From a virus (Duplodnaviria > Caudoviricetes): a DNA stretch of 64,000 nucleotides. Positions 7,903 to 52,715 of the stretch are shown here, one piece after another. The notes under the pieces are model-generated. The model did not search any database. It saw only the letters and a list, made by a program, of their open reading frames with translations, and had not been told where the DNA came from. The number at the start of each line of letters is the position of its first letter. The stretch's first letter is position 1. The DNA lies in the IMG/VR virus record IMGVR_UViG_3300020577_003668, positions 41,546 through 105,545 of that record; one strand, 5' to 3'. The position numbers and the translations under genes were made by a program.

Positions 7903-8220
7903 ATGCTTTGGCTTATTAATTACGAATCTTCTGAGTGGTGTGGTGGAGAATCGCACGTCGTTGTAGTTGCTGAAACCGCCGACGAGGCAAACTATCTTGC
8001 CGAAGACCACATGGAATCGACCATGCGTGAACTTTTTAGCGATGAGTACGCCGAACTGGAAGCAGAATACGCAGAATACGCAGAAGACGGTATAGACGCA
8101 GTTTTTGACTGTGCTTATACTATCAACAGTATTGAAGCGTTTGACGAGAATCATGAACACTGGAAGTTCTATTGCGATCCTAGTCAAGAACAGTTCTATC
8201 CTACTATTGGTAGGTTCTGA
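7903..8220 (+). CDS. Acidic hypothetical protein
   Basis: Coupled ORF, very D/E-rich. Confidence 0.7.
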   Translation: MLWLINYESSEWCGGESHVVVVAETADEANYLAEDHMESTMRELFSDEYAELEAEYAEYAEDGIDAVFDCAYTINSIEAFDENHEHWKFYCDPSQEQFYPTIGRF

Positions 8221-8375
8221 TGCCTGAAGATGTAAAGTCCCGTATAGAAGATATTGAGAACCAGCTGCGATATCTGGATCAGCGTCTAGAAGAAAATCCT
8301 CTAAATGCTACGGCCAGGGCTAGATATACGTATCTAGAAACGCTACTTAAAGAGCTAACTAAATTTCAGAATTAA
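8220..8375 (+). CDS. 51-aa coiled-coil protein (not in ORF track)
   Basis: TGATG overlap; MPEDVKSRIEDIENQLRYLDQRLEEN... Confidence 0.6.
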   Translation: MPEDVKSRIEDIENQLRYLDQRLEENPLNATARARYTYLETLLKELTKFQN

Positions 8376-8376
8376 T

Positions 8377-8456
8377 ACGACTGTACCTCAACGCTCTTCT
8401 AAAGCGTAGCAGAGTAAGTGGAGTCAATGTAGGTTCGAATCCTATCAGTCGTGCCA
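8377..8456 (+). tRNA. Atypical tRNA-Arg(UCU)-like RNA (no D arm before the anticodon arm)
   Basis: Acceptor acgactg/cagtcgt + GCCA; ASL acgct-CTTCTAA-agcgt only 7 nt after the acceptor; T arm gtagg-ttcgaat-cctat. Confidence 0.8.
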
Positions 8457-8470
8457 AATATTACGTATAC

Positions 8471-8546
8471 GCCTCGTTAACTCAATGGATAGAGTACTGC
8501 GCTCCTATCGCAATAGTTAGTCGTTCGATTCGACTACGAGGCTCCA
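8471..8546 (+). tRNA. tRNA-Arg(CCU)
   Basis: gcctcgt/acgaggc + TCCA; loop CT-CCT-AT. Confidence 0.9.
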
Positions 8547-9233
8547 TCCTTTAGTGCTTTTAGCCTTTCCATTTAATACTTCGTTAAGGTGAGAATTACT
8601 CAAGTTATAGGCTCTAGCAATTTCACTAATATTGGTTATATTACTAATAATTTCCCCCGTTTTATTATTTATAATGGCGGGATATACTTTACCCTTTGCG
8701 ATGGTATTACGAGTAACTAATCTATTGGTGGTATTAAGCTGTGTATACTTTTCAGGAAACTTATCAGATAACCAAGTATGGCGTTTTCCTAGATTAATAT
8801 CTCTAACTAAAGACACATTAGTCTCTGTAATATCTGCTATTTCTTGATATAGTAATTCTGGCATTTCGGTAAGATAGTAAAATATTTCTATAATTGTATC
8901 GTTATCAAATTTAGAGCCAGGATGACTATCACCTACTAGCCCTTTACCGTTACATACTTTATTTCTACTATTAAGACCCGAATTATAGGAATCGTATTTA
9001 CTAATCATTAGCTCCTCTAAGTTATCTAATTCATGTTCTAAACATTCAGTCAATATTTCATAGGTAAATGGGCCGTACCTATTATATGCGTCCTGTAACT
9101 TAATGCTAGAAGCTCCTCCCTTAAGTTTTGTTTTATGCGAACTAATTCTACGCTCTATATTTACCGCTTGTCCGATATAGACACTATCTGAACCTTTAAA
9201 CCTCAAAATATAAATACCACATGTCATTTTCAA
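8517..9233 (-). CDS. GIY-YIG homing endonuclease
   Basis: CGIYILR..VYIGQ..RR..H..E..GLN; AT-rich; has its own promoter. Confidence 0.92.
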   Translation of the reverse strand: MKMTCGIYILRFKGSDSVYIGQAVNIERRISSHKTKLKGGASSIKLQDAYNRYGPFTYEILTECLEHELDNLEELMISKYDSYNSGLNSRNKVCNGKGLVGDSHPGSKFDNDTIIEIFYYLTEMPELLYQEIADITETNVSLVRDINLGKRHTWLSDKFPEKYTQLNTTNRLVTRNTIAKGKVYPAIINNKTGEIISNITNISEIARAYNLSNSHLNEVLNGKAKSTKGWSLVVESND

Positions 9234-9237
9234 CCTC

Positions 9238-9282
9238 CTTATGTTATCCTATAATTATATAGTTTTAGGATAACATAAGCAA
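9238..9282 (-). promoter_or_regulatory. Promoter inside a 14-bp inverted repeat reaching the RBS
   Basis: TTGCTT-17-TATAAT; cttatgttatccta/taggataacataag. Confidence 0.8.
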
Positions 9283-9313
9283 GTGGAAAATTTTTGACCC
9301 TGGACCAATTAAA

Positions 9314-10147
9314 ATGAATGATTTTCATAAGCATTTCCCTGCTAATACTAAGGGAAGAGATTTCGTGGTTGGCGACCTTCATGGTAGCCTATCTATTCTT
9401 GAGCACATGCTTAAGGAACTTAATTTTAACGAACAAACAGATCGCCTGTTTAGCGTAGGCGACATTGTAGATCGCGGGCCGGATAGTATAGGTTGTCTAC
9501 GTTTGCTACGTAAGCCTTGGTTCCACGCTATCATGGGGAATCATGAAGACATGATGCTTCGTGGGCTATCTGGAGAAGATTTGGGCCTGTGGCTAGCTAA
9601 CGGTGGGAATTGGTACATTTACCTTACTCGTGACGACGTGTATGATACTAAAGATTTGTGCATTGAGCATGTACAGCATCTGCCTTTTGCAGCTACTGTT
9701 GATATGACAGACGGCCGCAAGTTCCATCTAGTACATGCTGAGTTTGATAACGTTGAGCCGATCAACGACAATGATCTTGCGCAGCGTATGCCGGAACTAA
9801 TGAATGAGTTTTCTTTCGATGGTCCATTTCCTCTTTGGGGGCGTAAGCTATTTGAACTTATTTTTTGGCGCGATTTAAGTGCTAAAGATATAGAGGAATA
9901 CGTGGTGCAGATGAACAGCTTTAGGGCTATGGAACACTTTGGTAATCTGTCCACTATTTTCTCAGGACATACTCCAGTTCGTAAGCCAACACAAATTGGT
10001 CCCCAGATTAATCTGGATACCTTTGGGTACAGAGCATATGAAGGTATGGAAGATGCGGCTCTAACTATCGCAGAGCCCTTTACAGGCAAGTTCTGGTCGT
10101 CAACCGGCGGTCCAGTGGTCGAAGTTAACAAATTGGTAATCGTATGA
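9314..10147 (+). CDS. Serine/threonine protein phosphatase (NinI/PphA-like)
   Basis: GDLHG, GDIVDRGPDS, GNHE, GHTP motifs. Confidence 0.93.
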   Translation: MNDFHKHFPANTKGRDFVVGDLHGSLSILEHMLKELNFNEQTDRLFSVGDIVDRGPDSIGCLRLLRKPWFHAIMGNHEDMMLRGLSGEDLGLWLANGGNWYIYLTRDDVYDTKDLCIEHVQHLPFAATVDMTDGRKFHLVHAEFDNVEPINDNDLAQRMPELMNEFSFDGPFPLWGRKLFELIFWRDLSAKDIEEYVVQMNSFRAMEHFGNLSTIFSGHTPVRKPTQIGPQINLDTFGYRAYEGMEDAALTIAEPFTGKFWSSTGGPVVEVNKLVIV

Positions 10148-10435
10148 AAGAAACCCCAGAAGAACGTGAAGAACGTAAGCAACGTGAAAAGGATCGTCGC
10201 AATGCCAGACGTACAAAACGACCTCCGGTGGAAGAAGCCGTTCAACTGGGATGAGTTGTTAAGTTCCACCATTAGGTGGAACGACGACTTACCAGAAGTA
10301 GTGCATCTTGATGCTGACGAAGAAGAATGGAAGGCTGGCTGGAATCAGTATTGTTTAGCCGCAGGTCTTCTGCAGGATACTGATTGGGCAGGATTAGAAA
10401 ACGAGACTTGCGGGCCCGAATTGATTGTTCTATAA
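10144..10435 (+). CDS. Hypothetical protein, apparently frameshifted near 10250
   Basis: ATGA-coupled MKETPEEREERK... frame stops at 10254; removing one G of GGG joins it to the DELLSS... frame. Confidence 0.5.
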
Positions 10436-10460
10436 TAGATATTCGATTGGGGGAAACAGC

Positions 10461-10637
10461 ATGATTAATCAAGCCACACTAAACCAAGTTAATTTGCTTA
10501 CTACTAAGCAACTTATTAAGCAGATTAAATCTGCTATTTCTTTCGAGGAAAAGCATCCGGAATTTAAGCATGGTTGGCACAACGAATACGTCCAGCATAT
10601 GAAGATGATTCTAGCTAACCGTATAGGAAAGAAATAG
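10461..10637 (+). CDS. Hypothetical protein
   Basis: Follows promoter 10408-10436 and a GGGGGA RBS. Confidence 0.65.
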   Translation: MINQATLNQVNLLTTKQLIKQIKSAISFEEKHPEFKHGWHNEYVQHMKMILANRIGKK

Positions 10638-10638
10638 T

Positions 10639-10836
10639 ATGGCTAGTGGATATACAAAAGACTTTCTAGTATCGGCTTTTCTAAGTCGATACTACTCGCT
10701 TCCAGAAGATAAGTTTGACGCACTGGAAAAGATGGCTAATAGTTTCTATGATGAAGTGGGGCGCGACAAGTTCCGCGTTTCGTGCTCTCTAGATGCTGAT
10801 GCTATCAAGACCGCTAAAAATTCTGGCTTGATCTGA
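10639..10836 (+). CDS. Hypothetical protein
   Basis: Coupled ORF. Confidence 0.7.
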   Translation: MASGYTKDFLVSAFLSRYYSLPEDKFDALEKMANSFYDEVGRDKFRVSCSLDADAIKTAKNSGLI

Positions 10837-10856
10837 TTGGTCTTTATCTATATAAT
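10828..10856 (+). promoter_or_regulatory. sigma70-type promoter heading a 1-kb non-coding block
   Basis: TTGATC-17-TATAAT. Confidence 0.8.
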
Positions 10857-10877
10857 AGATATATCGGATGGGAAAAC

Positions 10878-11160
10878 AAGCCAAGCGCATAGATGTTATA
10901 TCGAACGTGTAACTCATAGCATTCCTATCCTACAGCCGTTACTGCTTAGGCTTGATTAAGCTGCTCCCTGACTTCGTGGAGTGAAAGTTGTCCTTAATGG
11001 GAGACTAAACCATTAAGTCTGAATACTACTAGAAGTAGTTTACGCAGAGAAACGAAACACTGCCACCTATAGGACACACGTATTTGTGTTCTTTGTGAGA
11101 GCATGATCCGATGGTATCTGTATCGCTAACTCTAACGCTGGCCAGCATAGTGTTCAGACT
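10878..11160 (+). ncRNA. Putative structured ncRNAs
   Basis: Closing stems aagcc/ggctt and aagtctgaatacta/tagtgttcagactt; ORF-free. Confidence 0.45.
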
Positions 11161-11164
11161 TAAT

Positions 11165-11251
11165 GGGACCCTTTCCTGCCGGGAGTCTGTAAAACTCTTG
11201 CTATATAAGGCGGGTTGGCTGCGTGAGGATCGAAACCTCGGGGGCCCACCA
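11165..11251 (+). tRNA. Atypical tRNA-Tyr(GUA)-like RNA (rearranged arms)
   Basis: gggaccc/ggggccc + ACCA; ASL gggagt-CTGTAAA-actctt nested in cctgcc/ggcggg; T arm tgagg-atcgaaa-cctcg. Confidence 0.8.
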
Positions 11252-11252
11252 G

Positions 11253-11528
11253 AATGTGGCTGTTGAATAGGGTGCCTTTACCGGCAATTCAACATAAGTG
11301 AGACTAACAATTGGCAGTGGACATGCCTTACAGCGCACGTTAGACCTTTCCTAGTTGAGCCCATTAGTTAAATCTAAGAGTTATGAGCATGTTACTTAGG
11401 ATCAAAACGGCTCGCCTGCCCCGGGCGCTATTCTAGATGTTCTCTAGGGGACGTATAGCAAGTACGAAGAAGTGCTCACCCGCTGGTTTAACGCGGTAAT
11501 CCAGCCCCAGGACGCGCGGTAACCTGGA
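11253..11528 (+). ncRNA. Putative structured ncRNA ending in a ccaggac..gtaacctgg hairpin
   Basis: ORF-free, multiple hairpins; 3' motif shared with 12634-12652. Confidence 0.5.
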
Positions 11529-11656
11529 ACTATAAATTAGTATACTTAGGCTATGCAGAGAATGTTATAAAGCCTAGTGACCACAAAGCTGGTAGTATAC
11601 TAACTTATAGTTAGAGAGTAATTAACTTTAACTGTAGCTGGGAGTCATGAACCTAG

Positions 11657-11753
11657 TGATCCGTGGTGATGAAATGGCAAACATAGGCCCCCGATAGGGT
11701 CGGCGTAGCTAAATAACGCTTGCAGGTATCGTAGTCCTGCCCACAATGGATCA
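11657..11753 (+). pseudogene. Degenerate type II tRNA-like RNA
   Basis: D arm gatgaaatggcaaacat, 6-nt anticodon loop ccgata, variable arm, enlarged T loop, closed tgatcc/ggatca end, no CCA. Confidence 0.6.
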
Positions 11754-11855
11754 ATTATATTTTAGCAGTTTACCTCTACCAGTCCAGCTGGCTCGGTAGG
11801 ATAAGTACGGATAAAGAAGAGGTCCGTGCCTGCTAAAATATAATTAGGAATAGTA

Positions 11856-12209
11856 ATGAAAGAAGAGTTTCCAAGACAACTAACTGAGGACTACTACGAC
11901 GATGGTAGAGGTCCGTCATTGACCTATCACGGGTACAATCTGTATAAAACCTGTATCGCGTGTCCTGAACAGTACGACGTGTTTAAGGATGGAAAGCTTG
12001 TAGGATATATTAGGCTTCGTGGTGGTTGGCTTCAGGCTTTTTGCCCTGATGTTTTCCTTGAGCGAGTTTACTTCCACGAGTTTCCTAACGACGAGTGGAA
12101 GGGTTGCTTTGAAACTGACGAAGAACAGGACTACTATCTAGAGTACGTAATCATAGCGATTGATGATTGGGTACGAAAAAACGAACTTGAATCGCAAAGC
12201 CTTTCTTGA
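11856..12209 (+). CDS. Hypothetical phage protein
   Basis: TCIACPEQYDVF..VGYIRLR, a recurrent phage pattern; AGGA RBS. Confidence 0.8.
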   Translation: MKEEFPRQLTEDYYDDGRGPSLTYHGYNLYKTCIACPEQYDVFKDGKLVGYIRLRGGWLQAFCPDVFLERVYFHEFPNDEWKGCFETDEEQDYYLEYVIIAIDDWVRKNELESQSLS

Positions 12210-12794: not shown

Positions 12795-12899
12795 CCCTGT
12801 ATTGCTAATATTGGTAAAGAGCGACCCTTATAAAGTCGTAGTAAGCACTCAATAGATAATTGAGCTTCAATCTTGGTTCGATTCCAAGTGCAGGGACCA
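12795..12899 (+). tRNA. tRNA-Ile(UAU) with very long variable arm
   Basis: ccctgta/tgcaggg + ACCA; loop CT-TAT-AA; ~33-nt variable region. Confidence 0.85.
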
Positions 12900-12970: not shown

Positions 12971-13561
12971 ATGTATACTAAAGAAATAGTCCCATTAAAG
13001 GGCCTAAAAGCTGGCTATGTAATATTCAGAGATCATAGCCACCCCTTAGCCTATGATGATGGCGCTGTATATTTGCACAGACATGTTGCAAGTATTAAGT
13101 TGGGGAGATGGGTTACAAGCGAAGAGTATGTTCATCATATTGATGAAAATAAGTTAAATAATGAACCTTATAATCTAGAAATACTATCTAACTCAGAGCA
13201 TAGTAAGATACATAATCCAAATAATTTAAGTAAGATTATTTGCCCAACATGTAAAAAAGAATTCCAACCCATTAGTTGCAAAATACAATATTGTTCTCCT
13301 AAATGTTACGCAGTAACAACTATTAAAAATACAAAGATAACAAAAGAATTATTAGATGAACTTATACCTAAGACTTCTTGGAGAGATTTAGGTAATATGT
13401 TTGGATATTCAGATAACGGAATAAAGAAGCGTGCTAAGGCTTTAGGGTGTGACACTTCTAATGCAAAGAATAAGCGAATGCCAGCTAGACCGAATGGGGG
13501 GTACACGCTTGATAAGCGTGCTGTACTTGGATCGAAACCAAGAGTTGGTACCAAAGGATAA
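12971..13561 (+). CDS. HNH homing endonuclease
   Basis: YLHRHVA..VHHIDENKLNN..NL..HSKIH plus CxxC..YCS..C. Confidence 0.92.
   Translation: MYTKEIVPLKGLKAGYVIFRDHSHPLAYDDGAVYLHRHVASIKLGRWVTSEEYVHHIDENKLNNEPYNLEILSNSEHSKIHNPNNLSKIICPTCKKEFQPISCKIQYCSPKCYAVTTIKNTKITKELLDELIPKTSWRDLGNMFGYSDNGIKKRAKALGCDTSNAKNKRMPARPNGGYTLDKRAVLGSKPRVGTKG
13480..13553 (+). tRNA. tRNA-Ile(GAU)
   Basis: gccagct/agttggt + ACCA; cacgc-TTGATAA-gcgtg. Confidence 0.88.
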
Positions 13562-13562
13562 T

Positions 13563-13645
13563 GCCCCTGTGACTTATGCAAATTGGCACAGCTACGAGTC
13601 TTAGAAGCTCGGTTTTTCCCGGTTCGAATCCGGGCGGGGGTACCA
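13563..13645 (+). tRNA. tRNA-Leu(UAG), short variable arm, extended acceptor-D linker
   Basis: gcccctg/cgggggt + ACCA; cgagt-CTTAGAA-gctcg. Confidence 0.88.
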
Positions 13646-19134: not shown

Positions 19135-19209
19135 TGCCGGTAAATCGACTGTATCAGATACTTGGCTTTGACCCAAGGTAAGTAGGTTAGATTCCTACAC
19201 CGGCTGCCA
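19135..19209 (+). tRNA. tRNA-Gln(UUG), atypical D arm
   Basis: tgccggt/accggct + GCCA; cttgg-CTTTGAC-ccaag. Confidence 0.85.
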
Positions 19210-22369: not shown

Positions 22370-22704
22370 GATTGTCGTAATTCGGATCAAGCAGATGTGG
22401 GCCAGACGGGGCTTCGCCGCCCCCACCTCCACCAGTTAGTATAGAGTATAGATGCGCATCTAGTAATAGGCTAAGACCTAACAGAAATGTTCTCTGTACT
22501 AACTAATGGGGGTGAATATGTTTTCGATGGCGCAAATAAGTGAGATACGCGACACGGTAGGCGATGACCGTTAATCAAGCAAAACCTTTAAATGCAGCAA
22601 ACGATGCATACTTCGGAGAAGAACGCCTAGCGGCGTAATCCCGATGTAGGAGCTATCCTATATCAAACAAAATAGTTGGAGCGGCCCTGTCCATAAACAG
22701 GGCT
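22370..22704 (+). ncRNA. ssrA: Permuted two-piece tmRNA
   Basis: Acceptor piece ends cacctcc-A-CCA (22434); hairpin spacer; coding piece starts GGGGGTG (22508) with G3-U70; tag AANDAYFGEERLAA* at 22594-22638. Confidence 0.92.
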
Positions 22705-51540: not shown

Positions 51541-52715
51541 TAACAAAATTTAGACTTGAAATTTTTCAACAACTGTTATATAATTATTATACTGGTATAA
51601 AAATACAGGAATAATAAAATGATAGATGTAGAAAAAGTATTAAATGAATATGGTATTGACAAGGCTAGAGACCTATTTTTAAGAGAAGGATATACTCTTA
51701 CTCAGTTTCATTTAGAAACTAAATTAAGTACTAGTAAAAATAGAACTTCGCAGAGAGTGTATGAAGAAGTATATAGAATACTCGGTATTACCGAGATTCC
51801 TTATAAAGAAGATACACAGCCTGTTAGAAAATTTAAATTAGAATTTGATAGAGTCTCCGGCAAGTACTGGGAGTCTGACTATATAGTAGAGGTTCTACTA
51901 GATAAGCTACAAAATCCAATACTTAATAAGGCGGAGAATAGAGAGAGATACGTAATAGGTTTCCCTAAACACCCTAATTCGGATCCTACGTCTAATCAAA
52001 TTAAAGCACATATTGTTCAATGGGAAATATTAAATGAACAATATGTGCCTAGTAATCATTGGGTAATACCCGTAGATGATGATTATACTAACTTAGATAT
52101 GGATAACTGGGTTTTGGTAAATACGACCGAATTTAAGTCAGATAGATTTACCAGTGAAGGTAACCCTTCATATAAGCACGGAAAATCAGGAAGACATAAG
52201 TTAGGCGGCTGGGCGTTAATTAGTAAAAATAGTATTAATAAGCATAGATTCTGTACAAGATGTAATACAGATAAAGGTTTAATAGTGCATCATATTATTA
52301 ACTATCATCTATTTACTAATCCCATGGAAGCGCATAATATAGATAATTTATTAGTATTATGCCAAAGTTGTCATGCCAAAATACATCTAACTAATCTAAA
52401 TATAAAGGCCCTTATTGAGGAAACTCAATATAGCAAATTACTTAAATTGCTGGAAACTCTCAAGAGCCAAGTTCCAGACTCCATGAAGGAAACTTACGTG
52501 GACGTAGAAAAGCAACTTGGACTAACAGACAATCAGCAGCCAAGCACCTAAAGAAAAGTATCTAAGGTGAAGGTTCAACGACTATCCATTTATGGAGTAG
52601 GACCGAAGACGGTTCGAAAAAGGTAATACCCTATTAATTATGGGTAATGATATAGTCTGAGCTATATAGAAATATATAGAGAGAATACGGAATCGGTATT
52701 CTCGTAACATAACTG
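51541..52715 (+). mobile_element. Group I intron in nrdJ
   Basis: Exon ends in U, intron ends in G; P aaattgctggaa, Q aatcagcagcc, R gttcaacgacta, S atgatatagtct; splicing restores AVTA|IKPEGT. Confidence 0.93.
51619..52551 (+). CDS. Intron-encoded HNH endonuclease
   Basis: CTRC..VHHI..NLLVLCQSCHAKIH; the 3' end runs through the P and Q elements. Confidence 0.9.
   Translation: MIDVEKVLNEYGIDKARDLFLREGYTLTQFHLETKLSTSKNRTSQRVYEEVYRILGITEIPYKEDTQPVRKFKLEFDRVSGKYWESDYIVEVLLDKLQNPILNKAENRERYVIGFPKHPNSDPTSNQIKAHIVQWEILNEQYVPSNHWVIPVDDDYTNLDMDNWVLVNTTEFKSDRFTSEGNPSYKHGKSGRHKLGGWALISKNSINKHRFCTRCNTDKGLIVHHIINYHLFTNPMEAHNIDNLLVLCQSCHAKIHLTNLNIKALIEETQYSKLLKLLETLKSQVPDSMKETYVDVEKQLGLTDNQQPST

What the first reader, a model, noticed from the sequence alone, without database searches (positions are those of the whole stretch)
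8377..8456. tRNA-Arg(UCU)-like RNA with D and anticodon arms in swapped order
Seen: perfect acceptor, T arm, G73 and CCA, but the anticodon stem-loop follows the acceptor after only 7 nt, and a D-loop-like AGTAAGTGGA element lies after it in the variable region. The same layout occurs at 11165-11251. Inference: a non-cloverleaf tRNA class that may rebuild the elbow with the GG supplied from the 3' side.
Basis: partly seen in the sequence, partly recalled or inferred. Interest (0 to 1): 0.8.

Follow-up and report, generated by a model that had tools for sequence, protein, structure and literature searches.

The report
Phage tRNAs with rewired D-arm
Two genes in this phage's tRNA cluster are very probably working arginine and tyrosine tRNAs whose D-arm is not a hairpin but is paired across the anticodon arm. 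Many phages share this non-cloverleaf design, gene finders miss it, and I found no paper describing it.

Summary
Window 8377-8456 has a perfect 7-bp acceptor stem, G73, an encoded CCA, a canonical T arm and a UCU anticodon arm. Only 7 nt lie where the D arm belongs, and a D-loop-like TAAGTGGAGTCAAT follows the anticodon arm. Rfam's tRNA model scores it 38.3 bits only by deleting the D arm. ARAGORN misses it.

It is not a swap of two hairpins. In 17 distinct homologues, 3 nt before the anticodon arm pair with 3 nt after it. Pairing is 100%, with six different compensated combinations. So one D-stem strand plus the D-loop (positions about 10-20) has moved behind the anticodon arm.

The second RNA (11165-11251, GUA) uses the same idea. 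A 6-bp covarying helix spans the anticodon arm, and a covarying variable stem makes it a pseudoknot. There are 14 distinct homologues.

With these two RNAs the phage's tRNA set covers all 20 amino acids. AGA is its commonest arginine codon. In two contigs a mobile cassette that splits the rewired gene brings an ordinary tRNA-Arg(UCU).

Charging and decoding are untested. This scan has met both designs before on other phage DNA, and one earlier check of that claim elsewhere partly failed (details not shown to me). I found no publication.

The parts
8377..8456 (+). RNA1: rewired tRNA-Arg(UCU), 80 nt with encoded CCA. It starts 1 nt after an ORF's stop and lies 14 nt upstream of the canonical tRNA-Arg(CCU) at 8471-8546.
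   Evidence: (model R1 scores 100.5 bits)
8377..8383 (+). RNA1 acceptor stem, 5' strand. It pairs with 8446-8452. G73 is at 8453 and CCA at 8454-8456.
   Evidence: 7/7 pairs here. 98.3% of cells are paired in 17 sequences, and 6 of 7 pairs show double changes.
8384..8386 (+). Invariant U-A-C linker. I read it as U8, an A in the place of A21, and C22 opposite U13.
   Evidence: Invariant in 17 sequences. The position mapping is inference.
8387..8389 (+). D-stem strand lying 5' of the anticodon arm (CTC, equivalent to positions 23-25). It pairs with 8412-8414.
   Evidence: 100% paired in 17 sequences. Pair types are UA7/GC6/AU4 at one position and CG9/GC5/AU2/UG1 at the other.
8391..8407 (+). Anticodon arm: 5-bp stem and loop CTTCTAA, with anticodon UCU at 8398-8400.
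   Evidence: The loop is also UCU in the 9 homologues found without fixing the anticodon.
8408..8411 (+). AGCA linker, with A-G in the place of positions 44-45. It is 3-4 nt long in the family.
8412..8414 (+). D-stem strand lying 3' of the anticodon arm (GAG, equivalent to positions 10-12).
8415..8428 (+). Relocated D-loop-like segment U-AA-(G)-U-GG-A-GUCAAU. I read it as U13, A14, A15, U17, G18, G19, A20, then a tail leading to the T stem.
   Evidence: Nearly invariant in the family. Its AAUGGA core matches the D-loop AAUGGAUA of the neighbouring canonical tRNA-Arg(CCU). The numbering is inference.
8429..8445 (+). RNA1 T arm: GTAGG, loop TTCGAAT, CCTAT.
11165..11251 (+). RNA2: rewired, pseudoknotted tRNA-Tyr(GUA), 87 nt with A73 and encoded CCA.
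11175..11180 (+). RNA2 helix H, 5' strand (CCTGCC). It pairs with 11209-11214 (GGCGGG) across the anticodon arm.
   Evidence: 100% paired in 10 sequences, with 3 pairs showing double changes. 11 different strand combinations occur among 14 sequences. The close relative L032 has the compensated change C-G to A-T.
11182..11198 (+). RNA2 anticodon arm: GGAGT, loop CTGTAAA, ACTCT, with anticodon GUA at 11189-11191.
   Evidence: L032 has the compensated change G-C to U-A.
11199..11201 (+). RNA2 variable stem, 5' strand (TGC). It pairs with 11221-11223 (GCG) and crosses helix H, which makes a pseudoknot.
   Evidence: 95% paired, with 2 pairs showing double changes. The strands are swapped between L075 (TGCC/GGCA) and L006 (GGCA/TGCC).
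11209..11214 (+). RNA2 helix H, 3' strand (equivalent to positions 10-15).
11215..11218 (+). UUGG. Counted from the start of the H 3' strand, the two G fall at positions 18-19.
   Evidence: T51, T52, G53 and G54 are invariant or nearly so. The position count is inference.
11224..11240 (+). RNA2 T arm: TGAGG, loop ATCGAAA, CCTCG. The same unusual T loop occurs in this phage's tRNA-Ile(GAU) at 13480-13553.

Best explanation
Both RNAs are elongator tRNAs of the phage, Arg(UCU) reading AGA and Tyr(GUA) reading UAU/UAC. Their core is wired in a different strand order from the cloverleaf.

Shown:
- Acceptor stem, anticodon arm and T arm are standard.
- In RNA1 the D stem forms between 3 nt just before the anticodon arm and 3 nt just after it. 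The D-loop sequence follows that second strand and then runs into the T arm.
- RNA2 does the same with a 6-bp helix. It also keeps the class II variable stem, which makes a pseudoknot.

Inferred from the known tRNA 3D structure:
- The segment at positions about 10-20 has been cut out and re-inserted after position 45.
- The three new chain joins are 8 to 21, 45 to 10, and 20 to 47/48. Each connects residues that already touch in a normal tRNA, through the base triples 8-14-21 and 10-25-45 and the neighbouring 20/47 bulges.
- The same L shape could therefore form, with G18-G19 reaching the T loop at the elbow.
- In RNA2 the two extra base pairs would stand in for the 8-14-21 and 15-48 layers.

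Also inferred: the RNAs are cut out of tRNA-cluster transcripts, charged by the host ArgRS and TyrRS, and used on the ribosome.
For: 1. Structure of RNA1. 17 distinct sequences come from Pseudomonas and Limnohabitans phages and IMG/VR contigs. All four helices covary. The cross-arm helix is paired in 51 of 51 cells, as CTC/GAG, CGT/GCG, CGG/CCG, CAC/GTG, CGA/TCG or CAG/CTG. The search patterns left those positions free. RNAalifold finds the same structure unaided.
2. Structure of RNA2. All four differences from the close relative L032 form two compensated pairs. 14 distinct homologues show helix H in 11 combinations and a covarying variable stem.
3. tRNA features. Both have a 7-bp acceptor stem, N73 and encoded CCA, and a 7-nt anticodon loop with U33 and A37. 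RNA1 has a UUCGAAU T loop.
4. Known E. coli identity elements are present. For Arg these are C35, U36, G/A73 and an A directly after GG (A20). For Tyr they are G1-C72 (10 of 10), A73, U35 and a variable stem (the identity rules are from the literature as I know it).
5. The tRNA set. All 22 ARAGORN tRNAs of the 105.5-kb genome lie in the window. None is Tyr or Arg(UCU). Adding Gln (Rfam), Ile and these two RNAs covers all 20 amino acids.
6. Codon use. AGA is the commonest Arg codon in the phage's long ORFs: 364 of 980, or 37%.
7. A natural replacement. In L042 and L044 the rewired Arg gene is split by a 701-nt insert that carries a canonical tRNA-Arg(UCU). None of the 24 loci with an intact rewired gene has a canonical Arg(UCU) in the stretch I held.
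8. Position. RNA1 lies 14 nt upstream of a canonical tRNA. In the cultured-phage genomes its homologues sit inside the tRNA arrays.
Against: - There is no direct evidence of expression, end processing, aminoacylation or decoding.
- The only RNA libraries holding the region cover coding and non-coding DNA alike.
- The 3D argument is reasoning, not a model.
- RNA2 has an A4-G69 mismatch in the acceptor stem and an A54 T loop. Rfam's tRNA model does not see it.
- Several contigs with an RNA2-type gene also have ordinary tRNA-Tyr genes (L061, L087, L094). The rewired Tyr is therefore not always the only Tyr tRNA.
- Some family members lack an encoded CCA (L022, L033, L060).
- My second IMG/VR pattern fixed the UCU loop. 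Anticodon invariance is therefore independent only for the 9 sequences found by other means.
- An earlier check of the same claim on other DNA partly failed. The detail is unknown to me.
Confidence: 0.75

Rival explanations
1. They are tRNA mimics, not decoders. The RNAs keep a tRNA-like shape and anticodon loop so as to bind or titrate something. Candidates are a host anticodon nuclease or another tRNA-targeting defence, a modification enzyme, or a phage protein. On this reading they are not charged or used on the ribosome.
For: - The architecture departs from every tRNA known to work in bacteria.
- Arg and Tyr tRNAs are known targets of anticodon nucleases: colicin D, colicin E5, and retron-linked PtuAB (my knowledge of the literature).
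- Some contigs carry ordinary tRNA-Tyr genes beside the rewired one.
- Notes from this scan describe phage tRNA look-alikes mounted on Ro60-type handles elsewhere (unchecked).
Against: - A decoy does not need an exact 7-bp acceptor stem, a discriminator base and an encoded CCA. Nor does it need the synthetase identity positions (A20, G1-C72, A73), which are conserved here.
- The two RNAs fill exactly the two gaps in an otherwise complete tRNA set.
- A cassette that destroys the Arg gene brings a real tRNA-Arg(UCU).
- No handle or extra domain is attached to either RNA.
Confidence: 0.15
2. They are precursors that are re-ordered or spliced after transcription into ordinary cloverleaf tRNAs. Permuted or intron-containing tRNA genes behave this way.
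For: Permuted tRNA genes processed through circular intermediates exist in the red alga Cyanidioschyzon merolae (my knowledge). This phage also has a group I intron elsewhere, at 52387-52679.
Against: - The 5' and 3' ends are already the mature acceptor ends with CCA.
- Removing any single contiguous segment cannot place the D-loop before the anticodon arm.
- The covarying helix across the anticodon arm shows selection on the fold of the RNA in its genomic order.
- Rfam finds no intron in or next to either gene.
Confidence: 0.03
3. They are decaying pseudogenes or rearrangement scars of ordinary tRNA genes, with no function.
For: Gene finders reject them. RNA2 has an acceptor-stem mismatch. 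One family member (L087/L095) has a poor acceptor stem.
Against: - Dozens of divergent copies in unrelated phage contigs keep every helix through compensatory changes.
- In L032 the flanks diverge while the RNA stays 95.7% identical, and conservation starts and stops at the RNA's ends.
Confidence: 0.02

Closest known systems
Canonical bacterial and phage class I tRNA-Arg (Rfam RF00005), for example this window's tRNA-Arg(CCU) at 8471-8546 and the canonical tRNA-Arg(UCU) at L042 1860-1934
   Same: Acceptor stem, discriminator, CCA, anticodon arm and T arm are the same. The D-loop core AAUGGA with A20 after GG matches. A D stem of 3 Watson-Crick pairs plus one non-Watson-Crick pair is also present.
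   Different: The order of segments along the chain differs. The 5' D-stem strand and the D-loop lie after the anticodon arm, so there is no D hairpin and the RNA is not a cloverleaf.
Bacterial class II tRNA-Tyr(GUA), including canonical phage copies such as L070, L077 and L078
   Same: G1-C72, A73, the GUA anticodon loop and a stem at the base of the variable region.
   Different: The variable stem does not close a small hairpin. It encloses the relocated D strand and UUGG, which pair back across the anticodon arm to give a 6-bp helix and a pseudoknot.
D-arm-lacking mitochondrial tRNAs (nematode and other metazoan mt tRNA-Ser and similar; reviewed in PMC7609411)
   Same: Only a short linker lies between the acceptor stem and the anticodon stem.
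   Different: Those tRNAs are truncated to about 54-65 nt and lack the D stem, G18-G19 and the normal elbow contacts. They need adapted mitochondrial factors. The RNAs here are full length (80-87 nt) and keep all the elements in a new order.
Non-canonical bacterial tRNAs: tRNA-Sec, tRNA-Pyl, and allo-tRNAs with 8/4 or 9/3 acceptor/T branches (PMC5389517, PMC7609411)
   Same: They are natural, functional departures from the standard tRNA dimensions and were found mainly by sequence mining.
   Different: All of them are still cloverleaves with the arms in the usual order.
Permuted tRNA genes of Cyanidioschyzon merolae
   Same: tRNA segments are in a non-standard order in the gene.
   Different: There the whole molecule is circularly permuted in the DNA and is restored to a normal cloverleaf by processing. 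Here the ends are normal and the permutation is internal, so it persists in the RNA.

Membership tests
Elongator tRNA (Rfam RF00005 cloverleaf) | 7-bp acceptor stem, discriminator base and 3' CCA | tested here: met
   RNA1 has 7/7 pairs, G73 and CCA. RNA2 has 6/7 pairs (A4-G69), A73 and CCA. The acceptor stem covaries in both families.
Elongator tRNA (Rfam RF00005 cloverleaf) | 5-bp anticodon stem with a 7-nt loop, U33 and purine 37 | tested here: met
   The loops are CTTCTAA and CTGTAAA. The stems are 100% paired and covary.
Elongator tRNA (Rfam RF00005 cloverleaf) | T arm of 5 bp with loop U54-U55-C56-R-A58 | tested here: met
   RNA1 has TTCGAAT. RNA2 has ATCGAAA, with A at position 54. The same loop occurs in this phage's tRNA-Ile(GAU) at 13480-13553, and other RNA2-family members have TTCGAAT or TTCAAAT.
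Elongator tRNA (Rfam RF00005 cloverleaf) | D hairpin (stem 10-13/22-25 closed by the D-loop) between position 9 and the anticodon arm | tested here: not met
   Only 7 nt (RNA1) or 10 nt (RNA2) lie there. Infernal deletes the D arm. The D-stem strands lie on either side of the anticodon arm.
Elongator tRNA (Rfam RF00005 cloverleaf) | Score at or above Rfam's gathering threshold of 29 bits | tested here: inconclusive
   RNA1 scores 38.3 bits and passes. RNA2 gets no match even at E<=10. ARAGORN calls neither.
Elongator tRNA (Rfam RF00005 cloverleaf) | Aminoacylation and use in decoding | not testable with these tools
   Only indirect evidence exists: a complete tRNA set, codon use, and replacement by a canonical tRNA.
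Rewired (re-threaded D-arm) phage tRNAs, met repeatedly by this scan and unpublished as far as I could find | A covarying helix between a strand 5' and a strand 3' of the anticodon arm, followed by a GG-containing D-loop-like segment before the T arm | tested here: met
   Further members with UCG, UCU, UAU and ACG anticodons were found with model R1.
D-armless mitochondrial-type tRNA | Loss of the D stem and of G18-G19, with a truncated length | tested here: not met
   The D stem and GG are present and conserved, and the length is 80-87 nt.
Bacterial class II tRNA-Tyr | Long variable arm forming its own hairpin, with G1-C72 and A73 | tested here: inconclusive
   G1-C72 and A73 are invariant, and a variable stem of 3-5 bp covaries. 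But its loop holds the D strand and pairs elsewhere.
Permuted tRNA gene (Cyanidioschyzon type) | 3' half encoded upstream of the 5' half, with the mature ends inside the gene | tested here: not met
   The acceptor strands are at the two ends of the gene and the CCA is at the 3' end.

The most novel reading that the evidence does not exclude
The rewired core is an adaptation, not an accident. These tRNAs stay substrates for the host synthetases, EF-Tu and the ribosome, but they are no longer recognised by host (or phage) nucleases or other factors that read the D-arm, elbow or core of ordinary tRNAs. Phages would then keep AGA and Tyr decoding going while cellular tRNAs are attacked. If true, the cloverleaf is not required for translation in bacteria, and tRNA topology itself is a battleground between phage and host.
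Probability: 0.2. Interest if true: 0.92.

Novelty: new variant of a known kind. Interest (0 to 1): 0.8.

Why it matters
Textbooks and reviews treat the cloverleaf as universal for cytoplasmic tRNAs. The exceptions they list change arm lengths or lose arms (PMC7609411) but never change the order of the strands.

If these genes work, a large hidden class of phage tRNAs shows that the L shape can be built from a different chain topology and still be accepted by bacterial synthetases, EF-Tu and ribosomes.

Practical consequences:
- tRNA finders and phage annotations undercount tRNAs. All 11 cultured-phage records with an RNA1 homologue leave it unannotated.
- Analyses of phage codon-usage compensation are biased as a result.
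- The design gives a natural scaffold for engineering orthogonal tRNAs.
- It is directly testable in cultured systems: PAK_P2 and JG003 on P. aeruginosa, the Amme-3 group on P. putida, phiPsa397 on P. syringae, and DC31 on Limnohabitans.

Tried and rejected
1. Expression from public runs. Two wastewater metatranscriptome runs hold about half of the sampled words of 8300-11300. Only contigs are kept for them, and these cover coding and non-coding parts of 8000-12000 about evenly. This shows neither transcription nor RNA ends.

2. PAK_P3 sRNA2. This small RNA is highly expressed, lies in the tRNA region and carries a T-loop-like 11-mer (PMC4933390). I suspected it was RNA1's homologue. Its sequence in Table S6 has no UCU loop, so it is a different RNA. 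No supplement is held for the PAK_P4 paper.

3. In-silico un-permutation. Moving alignment columns 35-46 to between columns 8 and 9 makes ARAGORN call tRNA-Arg(tct) in 17 of 17 sequences, against 0 of 17 in the native order. With the moved block shuffled it still of 170. The test mainly restores spacing and says little about the mapping.

4. The single-sequence MFE fold of RNA1 pairs CUC with the second GAG, inside UGGAGU. I rejected this because homologues covary with the first site only, and sliding the partners destroys the pairing.

5. The MFE fold of RNA2 pairs GGGUUGGC with the 3' end. Nothing in the family supports it, and it scores no better than shuffled sequence (z = +0.46).

6. No fourth Watson-Crick pair exists in RNA1's D helix. 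C at 8386 opposite U at 8415 is an invariant mismatch.

7. An intron in the split copy (L042) is rejected. Rfam finds no intron there, only a canonical tRNA. The insert is a gene cassette. Its 198-aa ORF has no Pfam match.

8. My first scan of bacterial genomes used a mistyped spacing and found nothing. The corrected scan found 3 true members, all on contigs of metagenome-assembled genomes.

9. Seven literature searches and several papers read found no description of this architecture.

Full report
WHAT IS THERE

The window is the right-hand 64 kb of a complete 105,545-bp phage genome from IMG/VR. The genome has direct terminal repeats and 41% G+C. All 22 tRNA genes that ARAGORN finds in the genome lie in the window.

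RNA1 is at 8377-8456 on the + strand. Its parts, in order:
- acceptor strand ACGACTG
- TAC
- CTC
- A
- anticodon arm ACGCT-CTTCTAA-AGCGT
- AGCA
- GAG
- TAAGTGGAGTCAAT
- T arm GTAGG-TTCGAAT-CCTAT
- acceptor strand CAGTCGT
- G, then CCA

Rfam's tRNA model matches it at 38.3 bits, above the gathering score of 29. It does so only by deleting the 15 D-arm positions and inserting 18 nt in the variable region. ARAGORN does not call it.

The second RNA (11165-11251) has the same order of parts with a GUA anticodon. Rfam's tRNA model does not detect it even at E<=10.

HOMOLOGUES AND STRUCTURE OF RNA1

BLAST against cultured phages finds the RNA in 11 records:
- Pseudomonas phages PAK_P2 and JG003
- five P. 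putida phages of the Amme-3 group
- phiPsa397
- Limnohabitans phage DC31

In all 11 it is unannotated. In Amme-3 it sits inside the tRNA array, between tRNA-Trp and tRNA-Leu.

Two pattern scans of IMG/VR added about 20 contigs. Together this gives 17 distinct sequences.

All four helices covary. Overall 99.1% of cells are paired, against 70.9% in shuffles and 34-46% when the partners are slid.

The decisive helix joins the 3 nt before the anticodon arm (8387-8389) to the 3 nt after it (8412-8414). It is paired in every sequence, in six forms: CTC/GAG, CGT/GCG, CGG/CCG, CAC/GTG, CGA/TCG and CAG/CTG. The search patterns left these positions free. RNAalifold recovers exactly this structure without my input.

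The single-sequence MFE fold pairs CUC with a second GAG further on. The homologues contradict that fold.

HOW I READ THE TOPOLOGY (INFERENCE)

The strand after the anticodon arm runs N-N-G-U-A-A-(N)-U-G-G-A. That is the sequence of positions 10-20 of an ordinary tRNA-Arg. The neighbouring canonical tRNA-Arg(CCU) has ACUC-AAUGGAUA at the same positions.

The strand before the anticodon arm, U-A-C-C-N-N-A, reads as U8, then A21-C22-C23-N24-N25-A26.

So positions about 10-20 have been moved from between positions 8/9 and 21 to behind position 45. The three new chain joins are:
- 8 to 21
- 45 to 10
- 20 to 47/48

Each connects residues that are neighbours in the classical tRNA structure, through the base triples 8-14-21 and 10-25-45. 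This would let the usual L shape form, with G18-G19 docking on the T loop.

The arms are not swapped as hairpins. Half of the D arm has been re-threaded.

THE TYR RNA

A close relative of this phage (L032) carries the same RNA with four differences. All four form two compensated pairs: C-G to A-U in the helix CCUGCC/GGCGGG that spans the anticodon arm, and G-C to U-A in the anticodon stem. Conservation starts and stops exactly at the RNA's ends.

Two more IMG/VR scans gave 14 distinct members. The spanning helix occurs in 11 strand combinations, including ACACAC/GUGUGU and CCUUUC/GAAAGG. It is 100% paired in the aligned subset.

A note from an earlier agent of this scan led me to test a second helix. 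The first 3-5 nt after the anticodon arm pair with the last nt before the T arm, which in the window means 11199-11201 with 11221-11223. This helix covaries as UGCC/GGCG, UGCC/GGCA, GGCA/UGCC, UGCUG/CAGCG and UGUC/GACG. It is the class II variable stem, and it crosses the spanning helix, so the fold is a pseudoknot.

Counting from the first base of the 3' strand of the spanning helix as position 10, the invariant UUGG puts the two G at positions 18 and 19. The two extra base pairs would then replace the 8-14-21 and 15-48 layers (inference).

IS IT A WORKING tRNA?

Direct evidence is lacking. The indirect evidence is consistent:
- Both RNAs keep the exact acceptor geometry, the discriminator base and an encoded CCA.
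- They keep the synthetase identity positions known from E. coli. For Arg these are C35, U36 and A20 directly after GG. For Tyr they are G1-C72, A73 and U35.
- The phage's recognisable tRNAs lack only Tyr, Arg(UCU), Gln and Ile. Rfam finds Gln at 19135-19206. My covariance model picked up an Ile(GAU) at 13480-13553. The two rewired RNAs then complete all 20 amino acids.
- AGA is the phage's commonest arginine codon, at 37%.
- In contigs L042 and L044 the rewired Arg gene is split after UGGAGU by a 701-nt insert. The insert carries a canonical tRNA-Arg(UCU) and a 198-aa ORF on the other strand.
- These two are the only loci with a canonical Arg(UCU). None of the 24 loci with an intact rewired gene has one in the stretch I held.
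- For Tyr the exclusion is not strict. Three contig groups also have ordinary tRNA-Tyr genes.

Public RNA libraries were uninformative.

BREADTH

The covariance model built from RNA1 (R1) also finds rewired genes with UCG, UCU, UAU and ACG anticodons in other contigs. The design is therefore not tied to one isoacceptor.

Among one genome for each of 185,579 prokaryotic species, the RNA1 pattern occurs three times. All three are on contigs of metagenome-assembled genomes. This subfamily is essentially phage-borne.

The DNA of this phage and its relatives turns up in river, wastewater and activated-sludge runs.

WHAT IS KNOWN

Seven full-text searches found no description of a tRNA with this strand order. 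That includes the 2020 review of non-canonical natural tRNAs (PMC7609411) and the allo-tRNA paper (PMC5389517).

This scan's own notebook shows that other agents have met both the Arg/Ile design and the pseudoknotted Tyr design many times in other phages, and they too found no paper. One later check of that claim on other DNA is recorded as 'part of it fell', without detail. I treat those notes as leads.

VERDICT

Function as tRNAs is probable (about 0.75) but unproven.

Noticed in passing
window 13480-13553 (+): A tRNA-Ile(GAU) missed both by ARAGORN and by Rfam at its gathering score. It is an ordinary cloverleaf but has the T loop AUCGAAA (A54), the same odd loop as RNA2. It completes the phage's set of amino acids.
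   Followed up: partly
window 13563-13645 (+): A tRNA-Leu(UAG)-like gene with good acceptor, anticodon and T arms and CCA. It has 25 nt between the acceptor stem and the anticodon stem and only a 6-nt variable loop, so it lacks the class II long arm. CTA is the phage's commonest Leu codon (36%). The D-region fold is unresolved because no homologue was examined.
   Followed up: partly
window 12826-12899 (+): A tRNA-like RNA with a T arm and CCA. Its anticodon-type loop is UAGAUAA, with A instead of U33, and its acceptor stem has a mismatch. It may be a pseudo-tRNA or another non-standard design.
   Followed up: no
window 19135-19209 (+): A tRNA-Gln(UUG) found only by Rfam (39.8 bits). It has a 3-bp D stem and a D-loop without GG.
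   Followed up: no
window 22373-22638 (+) and 52387-52679 (+): The phage encodes a permuted (two-piece type) tmRNA (96.7 bits) and carries a group I intron (79.6 bits).
   Followed up: no
L042 1207-1987 (-) and the same arrangement in L044: A rewired tRNA-Arg(UCU) gene split between UGGAGU and CAAU by a 701-nt insert. The insert holds a canonical tRNA-Arg(UCU) (L042 1860-1934) and a 198-aa ORF on the opposite strand (L042 1276-1872). The ORF has no Pfam match, but its N-terminus (YVYRITN...HYYGK) looks GIY-YIG-like to my eye. It looks like a mobile nuclease cassette that brings its own replacement tRNA.
   Followed up: partly
L033 6977-7055 and L054 7162-7240: RNA1-type genes without an encoded CCA. 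Their acceptor helix continues into the flanks for 13 bp (CTTTGCTCGCCAG/CTGGCGAGCAAAG), which may be a processing stem.
   Followed up: no
L075 6090-6168, L093 6880-6961, L082 374-458, L006 5134-5229: Further rewired tRNA genes with anticodons UCG, UCU, UAU (Ile) and ACG. The L006 copy has an extra hairpin before the T arm. L006 and L028 carry both a rewired Arg and a rewired Tyr gene, as this window does.
   Followed up: partly
Pseudomonas phage PAK_P3 86344-86477 (PMC4933390, Table S6): The published, highly expressed 'sRNA2' lies between phage tRNA genes and contains a T arm (GGAGGTTCGATTCCTC). It is not a homologue of RNA1 but may be another unrecognised non-standard tRNA.
   Followed up: no
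window 10860-11850: RNA2 lies in an ORF-poor block downstream of a promoter-like site (TTGATC, 17 nt, TATAAT at 10828-10856). In relatives seen in public runs, homology breaks exactly at the RNA's ends (11160/11167 and 11251), so the RNA behaves as a module between variable flanks.
   Followed up: partly
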